A stretch of DNA of 64,000 nucleotides from Candidatus Shapirobacteria bacterium GW2011_GWF2_37_20 (GTDB lineage Bacteria; Patescibacteriota; Microgenomatia; UBA12405), in assembly GCA_000989305.1 (NCBI GenBank), contig LBTB01000004.1:12897-76896 (forward strand), written 5' to 3'. This document shows positions 3,363 through 58,181 of this stretch, piece after piece (positions within the stretch are counted from its first letter, which is position 1; each line of letters opens with the position of its first letter). Below the pieces are notes generated by a model. The model saw only the letters and a list, made by a program, of their open reading frames with translations, made no database searches and was not told the DNA's origin. The position numbers and the translations under genes were made by a program.

Positions 3363-4574
3363 TTAACGGTCTTTTATGGTGACTGAAAAAAGGTTTTCTG
3401 GATTGTTCTTGGAAGTAGAGATGGAGATGATAAGACGATAACCATCCGGAGTGGGAAGAAGAATTTTTGGGGGAAGGTATTCAGTTGAGTAAACACTTTG
3501 GTAATTGGTGTGGTCGTATTCAACAACACCAATACTTTTGTCCTGAATGAAAACCAAATTATTAGAGTAGGGAATCCAGGATATTTGACTTATGGCGGTG
3601 TTACCAATAAGAAAGTTGGTATCATCTTTGAAATCATAAATGTAGTAGGAGTCTTTTTGAAGAGTGCGTTGTTGAGCTTGAGTGCTTTGGGTGGGAGGAG
3701 GAGTGATAAAGCGCTCAGAAAGCGTGGCACTTTCAGAGGCCTGGTACAAGATTTTGTCTTCGGAAGTGTTAAAAGCTAATACTGTTGAGTCAGTGGCAAT
3801 AACTGATTTAAGTTCGAGGGGGAGTTTTTCTAATTTGTTTTGAATAGTCTGTGATTGAATGTTTTGCCAATCTTTTTTTATTTGGGGTAGACGGGAGGAA
3901 ATATCAAACAGATTTTTTGAATCAAGAGTCTGGTCAAGAGAAATAAGATAGACATTGGGGTTGGTTTTCGAGGTGGCGAGAATTTGTTTGGAGTTGGGAG
4001 AGAATTCAAAGGAATATTTTGACCAATCAAGATAGGGGAGGTTGGGAGATAAAAATCTTTGAGTATTTTTACTCATAAGTAGAGGCAATTCAGTCAGTTC
4101 TAACAAATATAGCCCGTTTTCTTTGCTGGTGGCTGAAGTAGAAGCAACGGCATATATAATTTTTGTGGAATCAGGACTAACAACTGGATTGATAATTTTG
4201 CCTTGAGTAATTGGTTTTAAATCAAATGAGGAGCGAAATAGTTGAGCATCGGCCTGATAAACGAGTTCTGGCTTTATTTCGATATTTTTTTTCCAAGCAT
4301 AATAGCCATCTTTACTGATTTTTATTTGATAATTTCCAGGATTGAGGTTGAGGGTGTCGTCGGTGGCGGTGACTAATAGGTCGTCGACATATACACTGGC
4401 AGATTTTGGTTTAGAGGTAGCCGAGAGTAGGCCGGTAACCTTGAGCTTGAAACCATTGTTTGGGTCCAGGCGGTAACCTCTGGCAAAAATTGAAATAAAG
4501 AGGGTGGCACTGATGACAATGGAGGCCACCGAAAGAATTATTAGGAGACTTTTTCGGTTAGAATTTGAATGCAT
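3363..4574 (-). CDS. Membrane-anchored PEGA-domain / TolB-like beta-propeller protein
   Basis: N-terminal TM helix. PEGA-like segment YQIKISKDGYYAWKKNIEIKP. Repeated SPDS/SPNS propeller-like motifs. Confidence 0.6.
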   Translation of the reverse strand: MHSNSNRKSLLIILSVASIVISATLFISIFARGYRLDPNNGFKLKVTGLLSATSKPKSASVYVDDLLVTATDDTLNLNPGNYQIKISKDGYYAWKKNIEIKPELVYQADAQLFRSSFDLKPITQGKIINPVVSPDSTKIIYAVASTSATSKENGLYLLELTELPLLMSKNTQRFLSPNLPYLDWSKYSFEFSPNSKQILATSKTNPNVYLISLDQTLDSKNLFDISSRLPQIKKDWQNIQSQTIQNKLEKLPLELKSVIATDSTVLAFNTSEDKILYQASESATLSERFITPPPTQSTQAQQRTLQKDSYYIYDFKDDTNFLIGNTAISQISWIPYSNNLVFIQDKSIGVVEYDHTNYQSVYSTEYLPPKILLPTPDGYRLIISISTSKNNPENLFSVTIKDR

Positions 4575-7788: not shown

Positions 7789-8604
7789 ATGAGGAATTGG
7801 AAAAGAGCTTGGCTAGTAACAACGCTAATTGTTTTTAGTGCTGGAATTGCTTGGATGTTTGAGGGAAATCAAAAACAAGTTAATATTGGTGGTGTTGTGT
7901 TACCAAAGCCAACTATTATTGAAAATAAATTAAAAATTGCAGTGATGGCGGATATTCACAACGACGAAGAGGAATTAAGAATAATGCTGAAGAAAGCCAA
8001 GGGCAACGGAGTTGAAATGGTGGTGCTGGCTGGTGATTTAACTAATAATGGGAAAACAAGTGAGCTGATTAAGATAAAGGAGGTTTTGGATGAATCAGGG
8101 GTGAAATATGCGGCTGTGCCTGGAAATCATGAGTATTATATTGACGAATTTGTAAAAATATTTGGAAAAAATTACCAGAGTATAAGATTGGGAGAAGTGA
8201 AGTTAATTTTGGTGGATAATAGCTACTGGAAAGGCTTGGATGAGGTGCATAAAAAATGGTTAGAGGGTGAGGTGGGTGAGTGTAGGGTGCTGATTTGTGT
8301 CGCAGTGATGCATAAGCCCTTAAATAATTTGTTTTCGAGCCATGTAATGGGTGAGAATAATGATAAGGCAACGGCAGAAGCATTATGGATGAGAGAATTA
8401 TTAATAACTTTCGGAGTCAGGCAAATTGAAGCGGGACATTTACATTATGCGAGCTCGTATGAGCTCGAAGGAATAAGAACGGATATAGTGGGGGCGGTTT
8501 CCAGGGAGAGAAATAATCAAAGTCCCAGGTATACTGAATTAATGATCGGTAGAGATTTAATAGAGAGAGTTGTGGTGGAGGAAACAGATGGTATTGGGAA
8601 TTGA
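7789..8604 (+). CDS. Calcineurin-like metallophosphoesterase with N-terminal TM helix
   Basis: DIHNDEE, GDLTNNG and GNHEY metallophosphatase motifs. Confidence 0.8.
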   Translation: MRNWKRAWLVTTLIVFSAGIAWMFEGNQKQVNIGGVVLPKPTIIENKLKIAVMADIHNDEEELRIMLKKAKGNGVEMVVLAGDLTNNGKTSELIKIKEVLDESGVKYAAVPGNHEYYIDEFVKIFGKNYQSIRLGEVKLILVDNSYWKGLDEVHKKWLEGEVGECRVLICVAVMHKPLNNLFSSHVMGENNDKATAEALWMRELLITFGVRQIEAGHLHYASSYELEGIRTDIVGAVSRERNNQSPRYTELMIGRDLIERVVVEETDGIGN

Positions 8605-16450: not shown

Positions 16451-16585
16451 TATACACTAATTTAAGTGGTTGGCAAAGAGGGGAATGAGGGTTACACTTT
16501 GGGCATTGTATATTAAAGGTTATTTATATTTCTAATTACAGAAAAATTTCTGAAATGGGAAATATCGGTAACAAAAGGAGGAAAT

Positions 16586-16903
16586 ATGGCTAGGGAAGAG
16601 GTGGTTAGAGTTATCAAAGGTTTTTCTGGTAGTGTTGGCGAAAATGGTAAATGGAGAGGTAGTGGATTGGTGGCACCTTTAATTACCCGAGTGTATCTTG
16701 GGGCACCCGCTATTTTACTGAATTTAGATGAAGAAGAGTGTAAAAAAATGATTATTAGAGGAATAAGGCAGCTAACGGGGGTAGTTATACCAGAGAAGTA
16801 TGATCCGATTTTTTGGAATTCAGAAAAGGGAAAGGTGGTGGCGGAAAAATTAAATAGGAGATTGCCACAATTGCCCGAGGGAAGAAAAGTTGATCGGGCC
16901 TGA
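16586..16903 (+). CDS. Hypothetical protein
   Basis: ORF only. Confidence 0.4.
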   Translation: MAREEVVRVIKGFSGSVGENGKWRGSGLVAPLITRVYLGAPAILLNLDEEECKKMIIRGIRQLTGVVIPEKYDPIFWNSEKGKVVAEKLNRRLPQLPEGRKVDRA

Positions 16904-20577: not shown

Positions 20578-21339
20578 TTATTTCTCAACAAGAACTTTGA
20601 TACAAGGACCCATGGTGGCACAAAGAGCCAATTTTTTAATTTTTGGAACTTTGATAACCTTAATGAGTTGTTCAATGTTGGCTTGTAACTCTTTTTCGGG
20701 TTGAGAAACTTTGCCGACAACGAGGTGGACAACGGGAGCTTTTTTCTCAGTTTTGATCATAGTTTTGGCGACAGAAAGGCGTTTGACGGCTTCTTCTGGT
20801 TTGTCGGTTAAGGTGCCAGATTTGGGATTGGGCATTAAACCCTTGGGACCTAAAACACGGGCGAAGGGAAGGAGTTTTGGCATGGTGGTAGGAGTAGCAA
20901 TCAGAATATCGAAATTTACTTTTCCAGCTTTAATTTCGGCTAAAATAGCATCATTTAGTACGACAATTCTTTTAGTGCTAGTTTCTAAATGAGGAAAAAC
21001 GATTTCGCCGAGATTGCCGATGTCAATTACTGTCAGATGGGCTTCGACTTTACCGTCGAATTTGGAAATAGAAGTTTCCTTGACAAGTTTAATGGCGTCT
21101 TTAAGAGAATAAAGCTTAAGGATGTCAATTTTTTTCTTGACGGCTTTATATTTTTTGCCACGGACGCGGGCAGCTTTTTTAACGGTGGAAGTTTCCTCAA
21201 CGGGAGTTTGGGCAACTTTTTCAGTTTCCTTGACTTCAGTTTCGGCCTTGCGAGATTCAGTCTCAGTGACTACTTTCTCTTCCACAGCAAGTTCTTTTTT
21301 GGCCTTTTTAGCCTTGAGTTCTTGAGAGGTTTTGCTCAT
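20578..21339 (-). CDS. rplA: Ribosomal protein L1 with a K/E-rich N-terminal extension of about 55 aa
   Basis: Canonical L1 begins at RGKKYKAVKKK. The preceding 55 aa are a low-complexity KAKKAKKELAVEEK... segment. The true start is uncertain. Confidence 0.8.
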   Translation of the reverse strand: MSKTSQELKAKKAKKELAVEEKVVTETESRKAETEVKETEKVAQTPVEETSTVKKAARVRGKKYKAVKKKIDILKLYSLKDAIKLVKETSISKFDGKVEAHLTVIDIGNLGEIVFPHLETSTKRIVVLNDAILAEIKAGKVNFDILIATPTTMPKLLPFARVLGPKGLMPNPKSGTLTDKPEEAVKRLSVAKTMIKTEKKAPVVHLVVGKVSQPEKELQANIEQLIKVIKVPKIKKLALCATMGPCIKVLVEK

Positions 21340-56746: not shown

Positions 56747-56783
56747 GTTTAATTTGAGGGGCGATTTTGATATAGTATACCCT

Positions 56784-56984
56784 ATGAGAAATTGTAGTCT
56801 ATGTGGTAAGGGAACTTCGGTTGGCCGCAACCGTTCCCATGCTCAAAATCGAACTTCCAGAACTTTTAAGGCAAATGTTCAAAAAGTAACTTTGACAGTA
56901 GGTGAAGAAAAAATCAGCGGGGTTTATTGTAGTAAATGCATAAAGAAGATGAAGGGTGAGATTAAAAAAACGGCACTTAAATAA
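56784..56984 (+). CDS. rpmB: Ribosomal protein L28
   Basis: MRNCSLCGKGTSVGRNRSHAQNRTSRTFKANVQKV matches the L28 pattern. The track ORF carries a spurious N-terminal extension. Confidence 0.85.
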   Translation: MRNCSLCGKGTSVGRNRSHAQNRTSRTFKANVQKVTLTVGEEKISGVYCSKCIKKMKGEIKKTALK

Positions 56985-57012
56985 GCACCGTTTCTTTAAT
57001 TGAAAAGAAAAA

Positions 57013-57132
57013 CTATTTTTTAGCTTTTTTTTTGACTTTCTTAGCTACTTTTTTCTTAACAACTTTTTTGGCTTTCTTAGCTACTTTTTTCTTAACAACT
57101 TTTTTGGCTTTTTTTGCTTTTTTTACGGGCAT
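57013..57132 (-). CDS. 39-aa lysine-rich peptide with exact 12-aa tandem repeat (KKAKKVVKKKVA x2)
   Basis: Hand translation gives MPVKKAKKAKKVVKKKVAKKAKKVVKKKVAKKVKKKAKK*. Strong RBS AAAGGAGGAACCAAC-ATG. Encoded by a 36-bp exact tandem duplication (57036-57071 and 57072-57107). Confidence 0.55.
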   Translation of the reverse strand: MPVKKAKKAKKVVKKKVAKKAKKVVKKKVAKKVKKKAKK

Positions 57133-57305
57133 GTTGGTTCCTCCTTTAATAAAATTAAAGAGGATTTGAAATTTTTTGTCAAACAAAAAACATCCTGATT
57201 TTCCGGTAAATAATTGATGTTTAAGATTAAAATATCATCAATTTTTGTAATTTTTTTTGAAAAATGTCAGTTAAATTATTCCTGTCTATCGGCAAAAAAT
57301 CAATA

Positions 57306-58181
57306 TCATTTTTTTGTGATTATTGAATAATATTTTTTTATTTCTGTCCACTCGGTTTTGTTTTTTCCCTCAACTTGGACCATAACTGGCACCAGTTTTG
57401 ATTTATTTTGATCCAAAATTCCCGAAAATATTTTCATTTTTAGAATTTGATGGTTGAGATTTTCCACAAAGGTCCAGGCAATCGGTGAGGGATTGAGAGC
57501 GCGGATAAAACGTTCAATTTTTTGAATATCCCAAGTCCAATTTATTTTTGCCCCATCTTTAGTTATTTTTGGAAAGTAACTTTTTTGAGTATGGTTTTGA
57601 ATCTTGAGAACGGTAGGATTTTGAATATATGTTTTTAAAACGCTTTCTAAATTATCGGAAGCTAGTTGAAATGCTTTTTGATAAAAGGAGTCAGCCGTTT
57701 CACTTTGGATGATGTCAAAAGGGACTTGAGTGATGATGGGACCGTGGTCGGGAAGGGGATCAATTTGAAAAAAAGTGACGCTACTTTTTGTTTCGCCATT
57801 AATAATTTGCCAAGGACCGGGGGTGGCACCGCGGTATTTGGGTAAGGTTGAGGGATGAATGTTAATTATTTTTTTGGGAAAGATGTTAATTGTTTCTTCA
57901 TCAAAAAAAGGAGGTCCAAAAGCCAAGCAAAGAGCCAAGTCAGCTTTTAGGTCGCGAAGTTTGTTTTTGACTTCCGGAGTAAATTCTTCAATTTGAAGAA
58001 GTGGGAGATTGTTGTCCTGGCAATATTTTGCGACATGATTGGGGGTGATTTTTTGATCACGACCAAAGGCTTTATCTATTTTGGTGACAACGGAAATTAA
58101 TTCGAAATCAGAAATTTTTGAAAGTTTTTTTAAAACCGGTAAAGAATAAATTGAAGCGCCAAAGAAAACAATTTTGGTCAT
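57306..58181 (-). CDS. fmt: Methionyl-tRNA formyltransferase
   Basis: IVFFG...N-terminal formyltransferase domain, HPSLLPKYRGA-like motif (IHPSTLPKYRGATP), and a C-terminal domain. Confidence 0.85.
   Translation of the reverse strand: MTKIVFFGASIYSLPVLKKLSKISDFELISVVTKIDKAFGRDQKITPNHVAKYCQDNNLPLLQIEEFTPEVKNKLRDLKADLALCLAFGPPFFDEETINIFPKKIINIHPSTLPKYRGATPGPWQIINGETKSSVTFFQIDPLPDHGPIITQVPFDIIQSETADSFYQKAFQLASDNLESVLKTYIQNPTVLKIQNHTQKSYFPKITKDGAKINWTWDIQKIERFIRALNPSPIAWTFVENLNHQILKMKIFSGILDQNKSKLVPVMVQVEGKNKTEWTEIKKYYSIITKK

What the first reader, a model, noticed from the sequence alone, without database searches (positions are those of the whole stretch)
57013..57132. Unannotated 39-aa poly-lysine tandem-repeat peptide with a consensus Shine-Dalgarno
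The minus strand encodes MPVKKAKKAKKVVKKKVAKKAKKVVKKKVAKKVKKKAKK behind AAAGGAGG. Two exact 36-bp repeats encode KKAKKVVKKKVA twice. The composition resembles histone H1/Hc1-like DNA-compacting tails or cationic peptides. Strong SD sequences are otherwise uncommon in this window. It falls below the track's length cutoff.
Basis: seen in the sequence. Interest (0 to 1): 0.5.

Follow-up and report, generated by a model that had tools for sequence, protein, structure and literature searches.

The report
Conserved polylysine mini-protein gene in Shapirobacteria
A real, conserved gene in one group of ultra-small groundwater bacteria (Candidatus Shapirobacteria) encodes a 28-51-residue peptide that is over half lysine; it most likely acts as a histone-H1-tail-like coat on DNA or RNA, but nobody has tested this.

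Summary
A 39-codon ORF lies on the minus strand at 57132-57013. It follows AAAGGAGG and contains two exact 36-bp tandem copies.

It is a gene, not a chance ORF. About 30 orthologous loci, with flanking fmt protein only 60-82% identical, all keep it between fmt and convergent rpmB. All share an invariant TTGACA-N17-TTTAAT promoter, the same Shine-Dalgarno, ATG-CCN, a KKK(A/S)K(K/R)-stop end and a strong intrinsic terminator. Thirteen peptide lengths occur (28-51 aa), all in frame, while the flanking spacers carry 1-nt indels. Sixty percent of substitutions fall at codon position 3. KKK is written AAG-AAA-AAA in 66 of 77 cases, the known signature of avoiding ribosome sliding. Non-lysine positions are almost only V/A/T/P, and no acidic residue occurs.

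No Pfam, NCBIfam, PDB or Rfam family matches. The gene is already called "hypothetical" in GenBank.

The best reading is a highly expressed, disordered polycation that binds nucleic acid non-specifically, like the H1 C-terminal tail or chlamydial Hc2. That function is inferred, not shown. A ribosome-associated role is the main rival. The antimicrobial, leader-peptide and antisense-ORF readings are disfavoured.

This is a new small-protein family of a known kind, of moderate interest.

The parts
57177..57190 (-). T-tract followed by the -35 hexamer TTGACA (57182-57177)
   Evidence: Read. TTGACA is present in all 25 distinct orthologous loci, 49-51 nt before the ATG. The consensus scanner missed the promoter only because it requires A at position 2 of the -10 hexamer.
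57154..57159 (-). -10 hexamer TTTAAT, 17 nt after the -35. The inferred transcription start is about 57148-57146, which gives a leader of roughly 15 nt.
   Evidence: TTTAATTTTA is conserved in all 15 loci that were found without using this motif (the metagenome loci were selected with it). The DNA further upstream diverges freely. The transcription start is inferred, not measured.
57140..57147 (-). Shine-Dalgarno AAAGGAGG, 7 nt before the ATG
   Evidence: AAAGGAGGA is invariant in all 15 loci found without it, with a 7-9 nt spacer to the ATG in all 25 loci. It is an outlier in a genome that rarely uses SD.
57013..57132 (-). CDS of the 39-aa polylysine peptide (stop TAG at 57015-57013)
   Evidence: Orthologues of 28-51 aa are all in frame, with MP(V/G/I)K at the N-terminus and mostly KKK(A/S)K(K/R) at the C-terminus. 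Codon position 3 carries 193 of 321 differences. Long A-runs are avoided.
57073..57108 (-). 36-bp tandem repeat, copy 1 (AKKVVKKKVAKK)
   Evidence: exactly identical to copy 2.
57037..57072 (-). 36-bp tandem repeat, copy 2 (AKKVVKKKVAKK)
   Evidence: In L012/L013 both copies carry the same three synonymous differences from the window, so the copies evolve in concert or were duplicated independently.
56961..57000 (-). Intrinsic terminator: 18-bp stem and 4-nt loop, with a U7 tract at 56970-56964. Its 3' arm and U-tract lie inside the last codons of convergent rpmB, whose stop TAA (56982-56984) sits at the top of the stem where it meets the loop.
   Evidence: Free energy is -19.3 kcal/mol with z = -6.0 on the peptide strand. 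On the rpmB strand it is -10.9 kcal/mol with z = -2.2, because two G.U pairs form only on the peptide strand. The core ACGGTGC...GTGCCGT plus the T-run is conserved, with compensatory or wobble changes in L070 and L074.
57306..58181 (-). Upstream neighbour fmt (methionyl-tRNA formyltransferase). This is context and the synteny anchor, not part of the transcription unit.
   Evidence: Pfam Formyl_trans_N and Formyl_trans_C. It is present upstream of the peptide gene in all 30 related loci.
56781..56984 (+). Convergent neighbour rpmB (ribosomal protein bL28). Its 3' end overlaps the peptide gene's terminator.
   Evidence: Pfam Ribosomal_L28, translation, synteny.

Best explanation
This is a genuine, independently transcribed, monocistronic small gene. 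It has a sigma-70-type promoter, a leader of about 15 nt that begins at a near-perfect Shine-Dalgarno, a 39-codon ORF and a strong intrinsic terminator. The predicted mRNA is about 185 nt. It is probably among the most strongly expressed genes in this Candidatus Shapirobacteria (Microgenomates, CPR) genome.

The product is 38 aa after likely Met removal, has a net charge of +23 and contains no acidic, aromatic or amide residues. It is an intrinsically disordered polycation built of (KK/KKK)+(two small residues V/A/T/P) units.

I infer that it binds polyanions electrostatically and without sequence specificity. The most likely target is chromosomal DNA, with the peptide neutralising charge and condensing the nucleoid as the histone H1 C-terminal tail, kinetoplastid H1-like proteins and chlamydial Hc2 do. 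RNA is a possible second target.

Length is set by slippage or unequal recombination of the 12-15-nt and 36-nt repeats. Selection keeps the frame, the two ends, the charge density and the absence of negative charge, but not an exact sequence.

Shown here: the gene is real, it is under selection, and it has expression signals and repeat dynamics. Inferred: the expression level, disorder, the binding partner and the cellular role.
For: Gene reality:
- About 30 loci from different species and metagenomes keep the order fmt, peptide gene, convergent rpmB, M50 peptidase. Their fmt protein is 60-82% identical to the window's.
- Eight of 8 GTDB species representatives found through fmt alone carry the ORF. 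Seventeen of 17 true hits found through the promoter/SD DNA pattern alone carry it intact.
- The promoter hexamers, SD, ATG-CCN, C-terminal codons, stop and terminator are essentially invariant, while DNA further upstream of the promoter diverges.
- CDS lengths run from 87 to 156 nt in 12 classes (the 36-aa P0003 adds a thirteenth length). All read into the same C-terminal end and stop, which lies 20-26 nt before the hairpin. The 5' and 3' untranslated spacers carry 1-nt indels.
- Of 321 pairwise differences, 193 are at codon position 3. The sense frame never changes more amino acids than the antisense frame in any pair (96 against 136 in total).
- KKK is AAG-AAA-AAA in 66 of 77 cases and AAA-AAA-AAA in 2 of 77. 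The longest A-run is 7 or less in 22 of 24 CDS, against a mean of about 9 after shuffling the K codons (0 of 2000 shuffles as low). This is the bias reported for translated poly-Lys in E. coli, attributed to ribosome sliding on A-runs (PMC4363877).

Selection on the product:
- The composition of 22 distinct peptides is K 56%, V 18%, A 16%, P 3%, T 2%. There are no D, E, N, Q, H, F, Y, W, C or L, although GAN and other codons are one mutation away from GTN and GCN.

Expression:
- The -35 is consensus, the spacer is 17 nt and the -10 matches 5 of 6.
- A 7-nt anti-SD match stands out in a genome where SD is rare.
- The terminator has z = -6.

Analogy:
- Hc2 is built of Lys/Arg-containing pentamers with A/V/T/P. 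It lacks acidic residues in its DNA-binding part, and it varies in length by in-frame gain and loss of repeats with conserved flanks (PMC2848022).
- H1-like proteins consisting only of the Lys-rich tail exist in kinetoplastids, dinoflagellates and Toxoplasma. Lys-rich DNA-binding proteins are known in eubacteria (PMC9769792).
Against: - No experiment or expression data exist for this lineage. DNA binding is inferred from composition alone.
- No H1, Hc1 or Hc2 profile matches, nor any other. Homology cannot be established for low-complexity sequence.
- Charge density (56-60% K) is higher, and the size (28-51 aa) far smaller, than any characterised bacterial H1-like protein. Behaviour may therefore differ, for example preferential RNA, ribosome or polyphosphate binding.
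- The genomic neighbourhood is translation-related (def, fmt, rpmB). If it means anything, it points to the ribosome rather than the nucleoid.
- The family was found only in one Shapirobacteria subclade. A general DNA-packing role would need another solution in sister lineages.
- The ortholog sequences are phylogenetically related, so the pairwise and shuffle statistics overstate the number of independent observations.
Confidence: 0.5

Rival explanations
1. It is a ribosome- or rRNA-associated small basic protein. It could be a lineage-specific ribosomal or ribosome-biogenesis peptide, or an 'in trans' Ala/Lys-rich tail that stabilises the reduced CPR ribosome.
For: - The gene sits among translation genes (def, fmt, convergent rpmB) and shares its terminator with rpmB.
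- Its expression signals resemble those of ribosomal protein genes.
- CPR ribosomes lack several proteins and rRNA segments. An Ala/Lys-rich C-terminal extension of about 25 aa on uS19 is described in Parcubacteria (PMC9297842).
- Toxoplasma H1-like protein also associates with ribosomal proteins.
Against: - Bona fide small ribosomal proteins have fixed length and non-repetitive sequence. This peptide ranges from 28 to 51 aa through repeat gain and loss, which does not suit a defined binding pocket.
- It matches no ribosomal-protein model in Pfam or NCBIfam.
- It has its own promoter and is not in an r-protein operon.
- The synteny was seen only within one fairly close clade, so the neighbourhood carries little weight.
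Confidence: 0.2
2. It is a regulatory leader peptide. The Lys-codon-rich ORF would sense Lys-tRNA or translation capacity and control termination at the hairpin. That would in turn control read-through into the antisense of rpmB and into the downstream M50 peptidase gene.
For: - It has 23 Lys codons out of 39, followed 12 nt later by a terminator hairpin. Formally this resembles attenuator leaders.
- The next gene on the same strand, M50 peptidase, begins about 265 nt downstream.
- Length variation is tolerable for a leader.
Against: - No alternative antiterminator pairing exists for the terminator's 5' arm. The region upstream of the hairpin stays unpaired in the fold.
- M50 has its own promoter-like site at 56801-56774 and no link to lysine.
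- Non-Lys positions are under compositional selection (only V/A/T/P, never acidic). The N- and C-termini are conserved at the amino-acid level through synonymous changes. A mere codon-counting leader would not need either.
- The SD is the strongest in the window.
Confidence: 0.06
3. It is a secreted cationic antimicrobial or host-interaction peptide.
For: It is a small cationic peptide. CPR bacteria are often episymbionts that interact with other cells. An M50 membrane protease gene lies nearby.
Against: - The hydrophobic moment at 100 degrees is 0.05-0.20, against 0.27-0.55 for magainin, LL-37 and cecropin. Hydrophobic periodicity is 4.0-4.2 residues, not 3.6.
- It is 59% Lys with mean hydrophobicity of -0.55.
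- It has no signal peptide, leader or transmembrane segment. No ABC exporter, immunity or modification genes are adjacent.
Confidence: 0.04
4. The real gene is the antisense plus-strand ORF 57032-57169, a 45-aa Phe/Leu-rich peptide resembling a type-I-toxin-like membrane peptide. Alternatively, the region is non-coding and A-rich, and the ORF is incidental.
For: The antisense ORF is open. It shares its third codon positions with the Lys frame, so the excess of position-3 changes alone cannot separate the two frames.
Against: - The antisense frame is open automatically whenever the sense peptide lacks Tyr, His and Gln (derived directly from the codon geometry).
- It starts with TTG, has no SD, and runs through the conserved promoter and SD of the other strand.
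- Every comparable pair shows as many or more amino-acid changes in the antisense frame as in the sense frame (136 against 96).
- The promoter, SD, ATG, stop and G.U-containing terminator are all oriented for the minus strand.
- The placement of AAG codons breaks up A-runs, as expected for translated Lys codons.
- Rfam gives only a sub-threshold chance hit (L20_leader, 21.7 bits against a 58.7 gathering score).
Confidence: 0.03

Closest known systems
Chlamydial histone H1-like protein Hc2 (HctB) and the Hc2-like or BpH1-type proteins of Bordetella, Burkholderia and Herminiimonas
   Same: - A Lys-rich low-complexity sequence built of 4-5-residue units, with 2-3 basic residues plus A/V/T/P.
- No acidic residues in the repeat region.
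- Larger repeat elements (36 aa in Hc2; 36 bp, or 12 aa, here) that are duplicated or deleted in frame while the flanks stay conserved (PMC2848022).
   Different: - Hc2 is 165-237 aa with a distinct N-terminus and C-terminal domain. This peptide is 28-51 aa and is nothing but repeats.
- Charge density is higher here (about 56-60% basic, against about 40%).
- No profile match to PF07382 or PF07432.
- The lineage is different (CPR Shapirobacteria), and there is no known developmental cycle.
- DNA binding is untested here.
C-terminal domain of eukaryotic linker histone H1, and tail-only H1-like proteins of kinetoplastids, dinoflagellates and Toxoplasma
   Same: - A disordered K/A-rich polycation prone to in-frame indels because of low-complexity DNA.
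- Stand-alone tail-only versions exist (PMC9769792; abstract of PMC5400378).
   Different: - H1 tails are about 50-100 aa, Pro/Ser/Thr-rich, and carry S/TPKK phosphorylation motifs.
- This peptide is Val-rich, has one or two Pro, and carries no such motif.
- There is no GH1 globular domain and no nucleosomes to bind.
- No detectable homology.
Pseudomonas AlgP (AlgR3), and the H1-like tails of actinobacterial HupB/Hlp and Streptomyces DdbA
   Same: These are bacterial Lys/Ala-rich repeat segments regarded as H1-like polyanion binders. AlgP localises to polyphosphate granules (PMC9239181, abstract). DdbA has an H1-like DNA-binding domain (PMC3643593, abstract).
   Different: - Those are tails fused to, or parts of, much larger proteins, with KPAA or PAKKA-type Pro-containing repeats (the repeat motifs are recalled from my own knowledge).
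- This one is a free peptide with KKVV/KKKVA units.
Sperm protamines and synthetic poly-L-lysine
   Same: They are very short, have very high charge density, have no folded domain, and would be expected to condense DNA purely electrostatically (own knowledge).
   Different: - Protamines are Arg-rich, eukaryotic, and often Cys-cross-linked.
- Bacterial epsilon-poly-L-lysine is made non-ribosomally.
- This peptide is ribosomally encoded alpha-linked Lys with V/A spacers.
Ala/Lys-rich C-terminal extension of ribosomal protein uS19 in Parcubacteria (CPR)
   Same: It is an A/K-rich low-complexity segment of about 25 aa in CPR translation machinery (PMC9297842).
   Different: That segment is fused to a ribosomal protein and occurs in a different CPR group. 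This peptide is a separate gene with its own promoter.

Membership tests
Linker histone H1/H5 (Pfam Linker_histone) | Globular winged-helix GH1 domain | tested here: not met
   The Pfam scan at E<=10 gave 0 families. A 39-aa pure repeat cannot hold the domain.
Linker histone H1/H5 (Pfam Linker_histone) | Lys-rich disordered tail that binds and condenses DNA | not testable with these tools
   The composition fits. Binding needs EMSA (gel-shift) or condensation assays.
Chlamydial Hc1 / Hc2 (Pfam PF07432 / PF07382) | Sequence match to the family profile | tested here: not met
   No Pfam or NCBIfam hit at E<=10.
Chlamydial Hc1 / Hc2 (Pfam PF07432 / PF07382) | Evenly spaced basic residues in 4-5-residue units with A/V/T/P, and no acidic residues | tested here: met
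   Hydrophobicity period is 4.0-4.24 residues. Composition is K 56%, V 18%, A 16%, P 3%, T 2%, with no D or E. Compared with the description in PMC2848022.
Chlamydial Hc1 / Hc2 (Pfam PF07432 / PF07382) | Length polymorphism through in-frame repeat duplication and deletion, with conserved flanks | tested here: met
   Thirteen length classes from 28 to 51 aa, with conserved N- and C-termini.
Bacterial small ribosomal proteins (bL34-bL36, bS21, bS22/bTHX) | Match to a ribosomal-protein profile, with fixed length and non-repetitive sequence | tested here: not met
   No Pfam or NCBIfam hit. Length is variable and the sequence is repetitive.
Bacterial small ribosomal proteins (bL34-bL36, bS21, bS22/bTHX) | Physical presence in the ribosome | not testable with these tools
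   This needs ribosome purification or cryo-EM from Shapirobacteria.
Transcription-attenuation leader peptides | A run of regulatory codons in a short ORF directly upstream of a terminator | tested here: met
   Twenty-three Lys codons. The hairpin begins 12 nt after the stop.
Transcription-attenuation leader peptides | A mutually exclusive antiterminator structure, and a downstream same-strand operon related to the sensed amino acid | tested here: not met
   No alternative pairing appears in the fold. Downstream lies the antisense of rpmB, then the M50 peptidase with its own promoter-like site.
Linear cationic antimicrobial peptides | Amphipathic helix (high hydrophobic moment at 100 degrees) with 30-50% hydrophobic residues | tested here: not met
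   The moment at 100 degrees is 0.05-0.20, against 0.27-0.55 for three reference peptides.
Linear cationic antimicrobial peptides | Secretion signal or leader, and adjacent export or immunity genes | tested here: not met
   There is no hydrophobic N-terminus. The neighbours are fmt, rpmB, M50, DUF1858, Rrf2, def and an epimerase.

The most novel reading that the evidence does not exclude
A ribosomally made, stand-alone polylysine peptide of 28-51 aa, a 'bacterial protamine', is the main DNA charge-neutralising and condensing agent in a clade of ultra-small CPR bacteria. Its length would be tuned by repeat slippage. This would make it the smallest dedicated nucleoid protein known. A related possibility is that it is an unrecognised lineage-specific component of the reduced CPR ribosome.
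Probability: 0.25. Interest if true: 0.65.

Novelty: new variant of a known kind. Interest (0 to 1): 0.4.

Why it matters
CPR (Patescibacteria) cells are among the smallest known, and how they pack DNA and balance charge is essentially unstudied. A conserved 4-kDa polylysine peptide with very strong expression signals is a concrete, easily synthesised candidate for that role.

It also shows two wider points.
- Length cut-offs and low-complexity filters hide real genes. HMMER, BLAST and profile searches all returned nothing or almost nothing here, while synteny and DNA-pattern searches recovered about 30 orthologues.
- Trypsin-based proteomics would be blind to the product.

The locus is a clean natural example of selection against ribosome sliding on A-runs, and of concerted repeat evolution inside a tiny gene.

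Tried and rejected
- Pfam and NCBIfam scans of the peptide at E<=10 found nothing.
- The 57-aa TTG-extended version found six relatives, mainly through the translated promoter/SD region.
- The exact sequence is not in the cluster table.
- phmmer of the peptide against 1.84 billion representatives gave 0 hits. The PDB sequence search gave 0 hits.
- A profile of 24 family members against 5.8 billion proteins returned only three already-known members, and the candidate list saturated at 8000 Lys-rich proteins. Sequence-similarity tools therefore cannot delimit this family, and its absence outside the clade is not established.
- Rfam gave only sub-threshold chance hits (L20_leader, 21.7 bits against 58.7).
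- The viral contig scan for SD plus the N-terminal codons gave 0 hits.
- The terminator and promoter consensus scanner missed both elements, because of the -10 second-position rule and the stem rules. They were established by reading the sequence, by folding and by conservation instead.
- I considered an SD-sequestering hairpin (TCCTCTTTAAT/ATTAAAGGAGGA). It is no more stable than shuffles (z = -0.9), its left arm is not conserved, and it would lie upstream of the inferred transcription start. I rejected it as a regulatory element.
- tblastn for HU and bS21 in the window found nothing significant. This is uninformative for the whole genome.
- I did not attempt structure prediction, because a 39-aa low-complexity polycation would give a meaningless model.
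- One locus (P0003) had no retrievable DNA.
Full report
**1. What is in the sequence**

On the minus strand, ATG at 57132 opens a 39-codon ORF that ends at TAG 57015-57013. The product is MPVKKAKKAKKVVKKKVAKKAKKVVKKKVAKKVKKKAKK. It has 23 Lys (59%), a mass of 4.4 kDa, pI 11.3 and no acidic residue.

AAAGGAGG lies at 57147-57140, 7 nt before the ATG. Upstream I read TTGACA (57182-57177), a 17-nt spacer, then TTTAAT (57159-57154). The consensus scanner missed this promoter only because it requires A at the second position of the -10 hexamer.

Twelve nucleotides after the stop an 18-bp stem-loop begins (57000-56961), followed by a U7 tract. Its free energy is -19.3 kcal/mol, with z = -6.0 against shuffles.

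TRF reports a period-36 array with 2.5 copies and 94% matches. Two copies, 57108-57073 and 57072-57037, are exactly identical and each encodes AKKVVKKKVAKK.

**2. Where it comes from, and whether it was known**

The identical peptide gene is called on 14 public contigs. These include GenBank LBUO01000002.1 of assembly GCA_000992605.1 and several Rifle groundwater metagenome assemblies. It is a called gene with no family assignment, so it is not strictly unannotated.

A scan of GTDB species representatives with an fmt alignment places the close relatives in Candidatus Shapirobacteria (Microgenomates, CPR/Patescibacteria).

The neighbours are as follows:
- peptide deformylase
- an NAD-dependent epimerase
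- fmt, 57306-58181, same strand, 174 nt upstream
- convergent rpmB (bL28)
- an M50 peptidase
- DUF1858
- Rrf2

**3. Is it a gene?**

Six protein-level relatives were recovered. They were found mainly because gene callers started them at an upstream TTG, so that the translated promoter and SD added score. All six lie in the same fmt / peptide gene / rpmB position.

Two samples were independent of the ORF itself.
- Eight of 8 species representatives with fmt 69-79% identical carry a Lys-rich ORF of 28-43 aa, about 180 nt after fmt. Thirty-five more distant fmt loci (35% identity or less over most of fmt; a few reach 36-43% over short fragments) have none within 2.5 kb.
- A metagenome scan used only the promoter/SD/ATGCC DNA pattern. 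It gave 20 hits, of which 17 are family members, all with an intact ORF of 29-51 aa. The other three are chance hits.

tblastn shows that all 30 loci keep the same order of fmt, rpmB and, wherever the contig extends far enough, M50. The fmt protein is 60-82% identical to the window's, and fmt DNA is 74-82% identical among the six genomes compared directly.

Against that background, several elements are essentially invariant while the DNA further upstream diverges freely:
- TTGACA, lying 49-51 nt before the ATG
- TTTAAT
- AAAGGAGGA
- ATG-CCN
- the C-terminal KKK(A/S)K(K/R) plus stop
- the hairpin core ACGGTGC...GTGCCGT plus the T-run

CDS lengths fall in 12 classes from 87 to 156 nt. All read into the same C-terminal end and the same stop, which lies 20-26 nt before the hairpin. 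The 36-aa P0003 adds a thirteenth length. The untranslated spacers on both sides carry 1-nt indels: 7, 8 or 9 nt on the 5' side and 20-26 nt on the 3' side.

Among equal-length pairs, 193 of 321 nucleotide differences are at codon position 3.

**4. Which strand and frame?**

The plus strand carries a 45-aa Phe/Leu-rich ORF at 57032-57169. Its third codon positions coincide with those of the Lys frame, so the excess of position-3 changes cannot separate the two.

That antisense frame is open automatically whenever the sense peptide lacks Tyr, His and Gln. This follows from the codon geometry. It has a TTG start, no SD, and runs through the other strand's promoter.

In every comparable pair the sense frame changes as many or fewer amino acids than the antisense frame, 96 against 136 in total.

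The terminator contains two G.U pairs that become A.C mismatches on the other strand. Its energy is -19.3 kcal/mol on the peptide strand and -10.9 kcal/mol on the rpmB strand. L070 and L074 show compensatory or wobble changes that preserve the peptide-strand hairpin.

The minus-strand Lys frame is therefore the coding frame.

**5. A translation-specific signature**

Lys codons are 76% AAA. Yet KKK is written AAG-AAA-AAA in 66 of 77 cases and AAA-AAA-AAA in only 2 of 77. The longest A-run is 7 or less in 22 of 24 distinct CDS. Shuffling AAA and AAG among the Lys codons gives a mean of about 9 per CDS, and none of 2000 shuffles is as low as the observed value.

Koutmou et al. showed that ribosomes slide on consecutive AAA codons. 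They also showed that in E. coli AAG-AAA-AAA is enriched 2-fold and AAA-AAA-AAA is depleted 50-fold (PMC4363877).

The same bias here argues that faithful translation of this ORF is under selection. One caveat applies: the sequences are related, so the counts are not fully independent. The window's own copy is one of the two exceptions, with an A9 run at GTC-AAA-AAA-AAA-GCT.

**6. Selection on the product**

Across 22 distinct peptides the composition is K 56%, V 18%, A 16%, P 3%, T 2%, with traces of R, S, G and I. There are no D, E, N, Q, H, F, Y, W, C or L, although many of these are one mutation away from GTN and GCN codons.

The alignment shows a core of MPVKK-AKK...KKVVKKKVA(KKA)KKVVKKKAAKK..AKKKAKK. 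Whole 4-5-residue or 12-residue units are gained or lost.

The two 36-bp copies are identical within the window and identical within L012/L013. Between these genomes, both copies differ at the same three synonymous sites. So the copies are either homogenised or were duplicated independently.

Selection therefore acts on the frame, the two ends, the charge density and the absence of negative charge, but not on an exact sequence.

**7. Expression context**

This genome rarely uses Shine-Dalgarno sequences. Of 53 ORFs of at least 150 aa, only 10 show a 5-nt or longer anti-SD match before any candidate start in the first 40 codons, and only 3 show 6 nt or more.

The minus strand has just 12 GGAGG in 64 kb, one of which is this SD.

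The gene combines a consensus -35 hexamer, a 17-nt spacer, a 5-of-6 match in the -10 hexamer, and a strong terminator. It looks built for high, autonomous expression as a monocistronic mRNA of about 185 nt. The transcription start and the expression level are inferred.

**8. What it most likely does**

The peptide has no hydrophobic segment and no signal sequence. Its helical hydrophobic moment is 0.05-0.20, against 0.27-0.55 for three reference antimicrobial peptides. Its hydrophobic periodicity is 4.0-4.2 residues rather than 3.6. A membrane-active amphipathic helix is therefore unlikely.

Several features match what is described for the DNA-binding repeat region of chlamydial Hc2 (PMC2848022), for the H1 C-terminal domain, and for the tail-only H1-like proteins of some protists (PMC9769792):
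- two or three basic residues followed by two small residues
- a total lack of acidic residues
- in-frame repeat polymorphism between conserved ends

I therefore favour a disordered polycation that binds nucleic acid electrostatically, with nucleoid DNA as the most likely partner. From memory, and not verified here, cryo-EM of ultra-small Rifle groundwater cells reported very densely packed DNA (Luef et al. 2015). This would make such a counter-ion plausible.

My estimates are as follows:

| Reading | Probability |
|---|---|
| Real translated gene | about 0.95 |
| Non-specific polyanion or nucleic-acid binder | about 0.6-0.7 |
| Nucleoid as the main site of action | about 0.35-0.4 |
| Ribosome or rRNA association (the main rival) | about 0.2 |

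The ribosome reading is favoured by the translation-gene neighbourhood and by Ala/Lys-rich ribosomal-protein extensions elsewhere in CPR (PMC9297842). It is disfavoured by the variable length.

A Lys-sensing leader peptide is formally suggested by 23 Lys codons next to a terminator. But there is no antiterminator alternative, and the downstream M50 gene has its own promoter-like site. The amino-acid-level constraints in section 6 also go beyond what a leader peptide needs.

**9. Comparison with known families**

No Pfam, NCBIfam, PDB or Rfam family matches. The peptide fails the defining tests for several classes:
- H1, because there is no globular domain
- Hc1 and Hc2, because there is no profile match
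- small ribosomal proteins, because there is no profile match and the length is not fixed
- attenuator leaders, because there is no alternative structure and no related operon
- cationic antimicrobial peptides, because there is no amphipathicity and no export apparatus

It meets the compositional and repeat-dynamics features of Hc2-type and H1-tail-type proteins. So it works like an H1 or Hc2 tail, by inference, but it is not demonstrably a member of any described family.

It is much smaller and more highly charged than any characterised bacterial H1-like protein, and it is a free-standing gene.

**10. Limits**

Similarity searches are nearly useless for this sequence. The apparent restriction to one Shapirobacteria subclade therefore reflects where synteny and the promoter motif are conserved, not proven absence elsewhere.

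No expression, proteomic or biochemical data were available.

**Verdict**

- This is a genuine, conserved, probably highly expressed polylysine mini-protein, and a new small-protein family of the H1-tail-like kind.
- Interest is moderate.

Noticed in passing
window 1-64000: GC skew is extreme and uniformly positive, +0.22 to +0.46 in every 4-kb bin. As a result GGAGG occurs 130 times on the plus strand and 12 times on the minus strand, even though genes lie on both strands. This is far above typical bacterial skew.
   Followed up: partly
window 16577-16903 (+): This is the only other ORF in the window with the same strong SD context (AAAAGGAGGAAAT-ATG). It is a 105-aa protein with no Pfam family and may be another highly expressed unknown.
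   Followed up: partly
window, all ORFs of at least 150 aa: Shine-Dalgarno use is rare in this genome. Only 10 of 53 long ORFs have a 5-nt or longer anti-SD match before any start in the first 40 codons, and 3 of 53 have 6 nt or more.
   Followed up: yes
window 56961-57000 and rpmB 3' end at 56961-56984: The peptide gene's terminator overlaps the convergent rpmB coding sequence. The 3' arm and U7 tract encode bL28's last residues (KKTAL), and the rpmB stop codon lies at the top of the stem where it meets the loop. The hairpin is much weaker on the rpmB strand, -10.9 against -19.3 kcal/mol. rpmB transcripts may therefore read into the antisense of the peptide gene.
   Followed up: partly
window 57037-57108; L012 and L013 around 4078-4149: The two 36-bp repeat copies are identical within each genome. 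Between genomes, both copies differ at the same three synonymous sites. This indicates concerted evolution or independent recent duplications.
   Followed up: partly
L019, L020, L024, L025 (genome contigs records): MAG records titled 'uncultured Gammaproteobacteria' and 'Candidatus Methanoperedens sp.' carry this Shapirobacteria-type locus, with fmt 69-79% identical to the window. Their taxonomic labels are probably wrong, or the contigs are contaminants.
   Followed up: no
window 57140-57166 (-): An inverted repeat, TCCTCTTTAAT / ATTAAAGGAGGA, spans the -10 hexamer and the SD. Its fold is no better than shuffles (z = -0.9), and the left arm varies among orthologues. It is probably not a regulatory hairpin.
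   Followed up: yes
window about 21130-21190 (-), inside ORF 20578-21339: A Lys/Arg-rich stretch (STVKKAARVRGKKYKAVKKK) lies near the N-terminus of a 253-aa ORF. I did not identify the protein. A CPR-specific N-terminal insertion is described for ribosomal protein uL1 in Microgenomates, and this might be the same feature.
   Followed up: no
window 57013-57024 (-): The window's copy is one of only two family members with an uninterrupted AAA-AAA-AAA (an A9 run, in GTC AAAAAAAAA GCT). All other orthologues break this run with AAG.
   Followed up: yes
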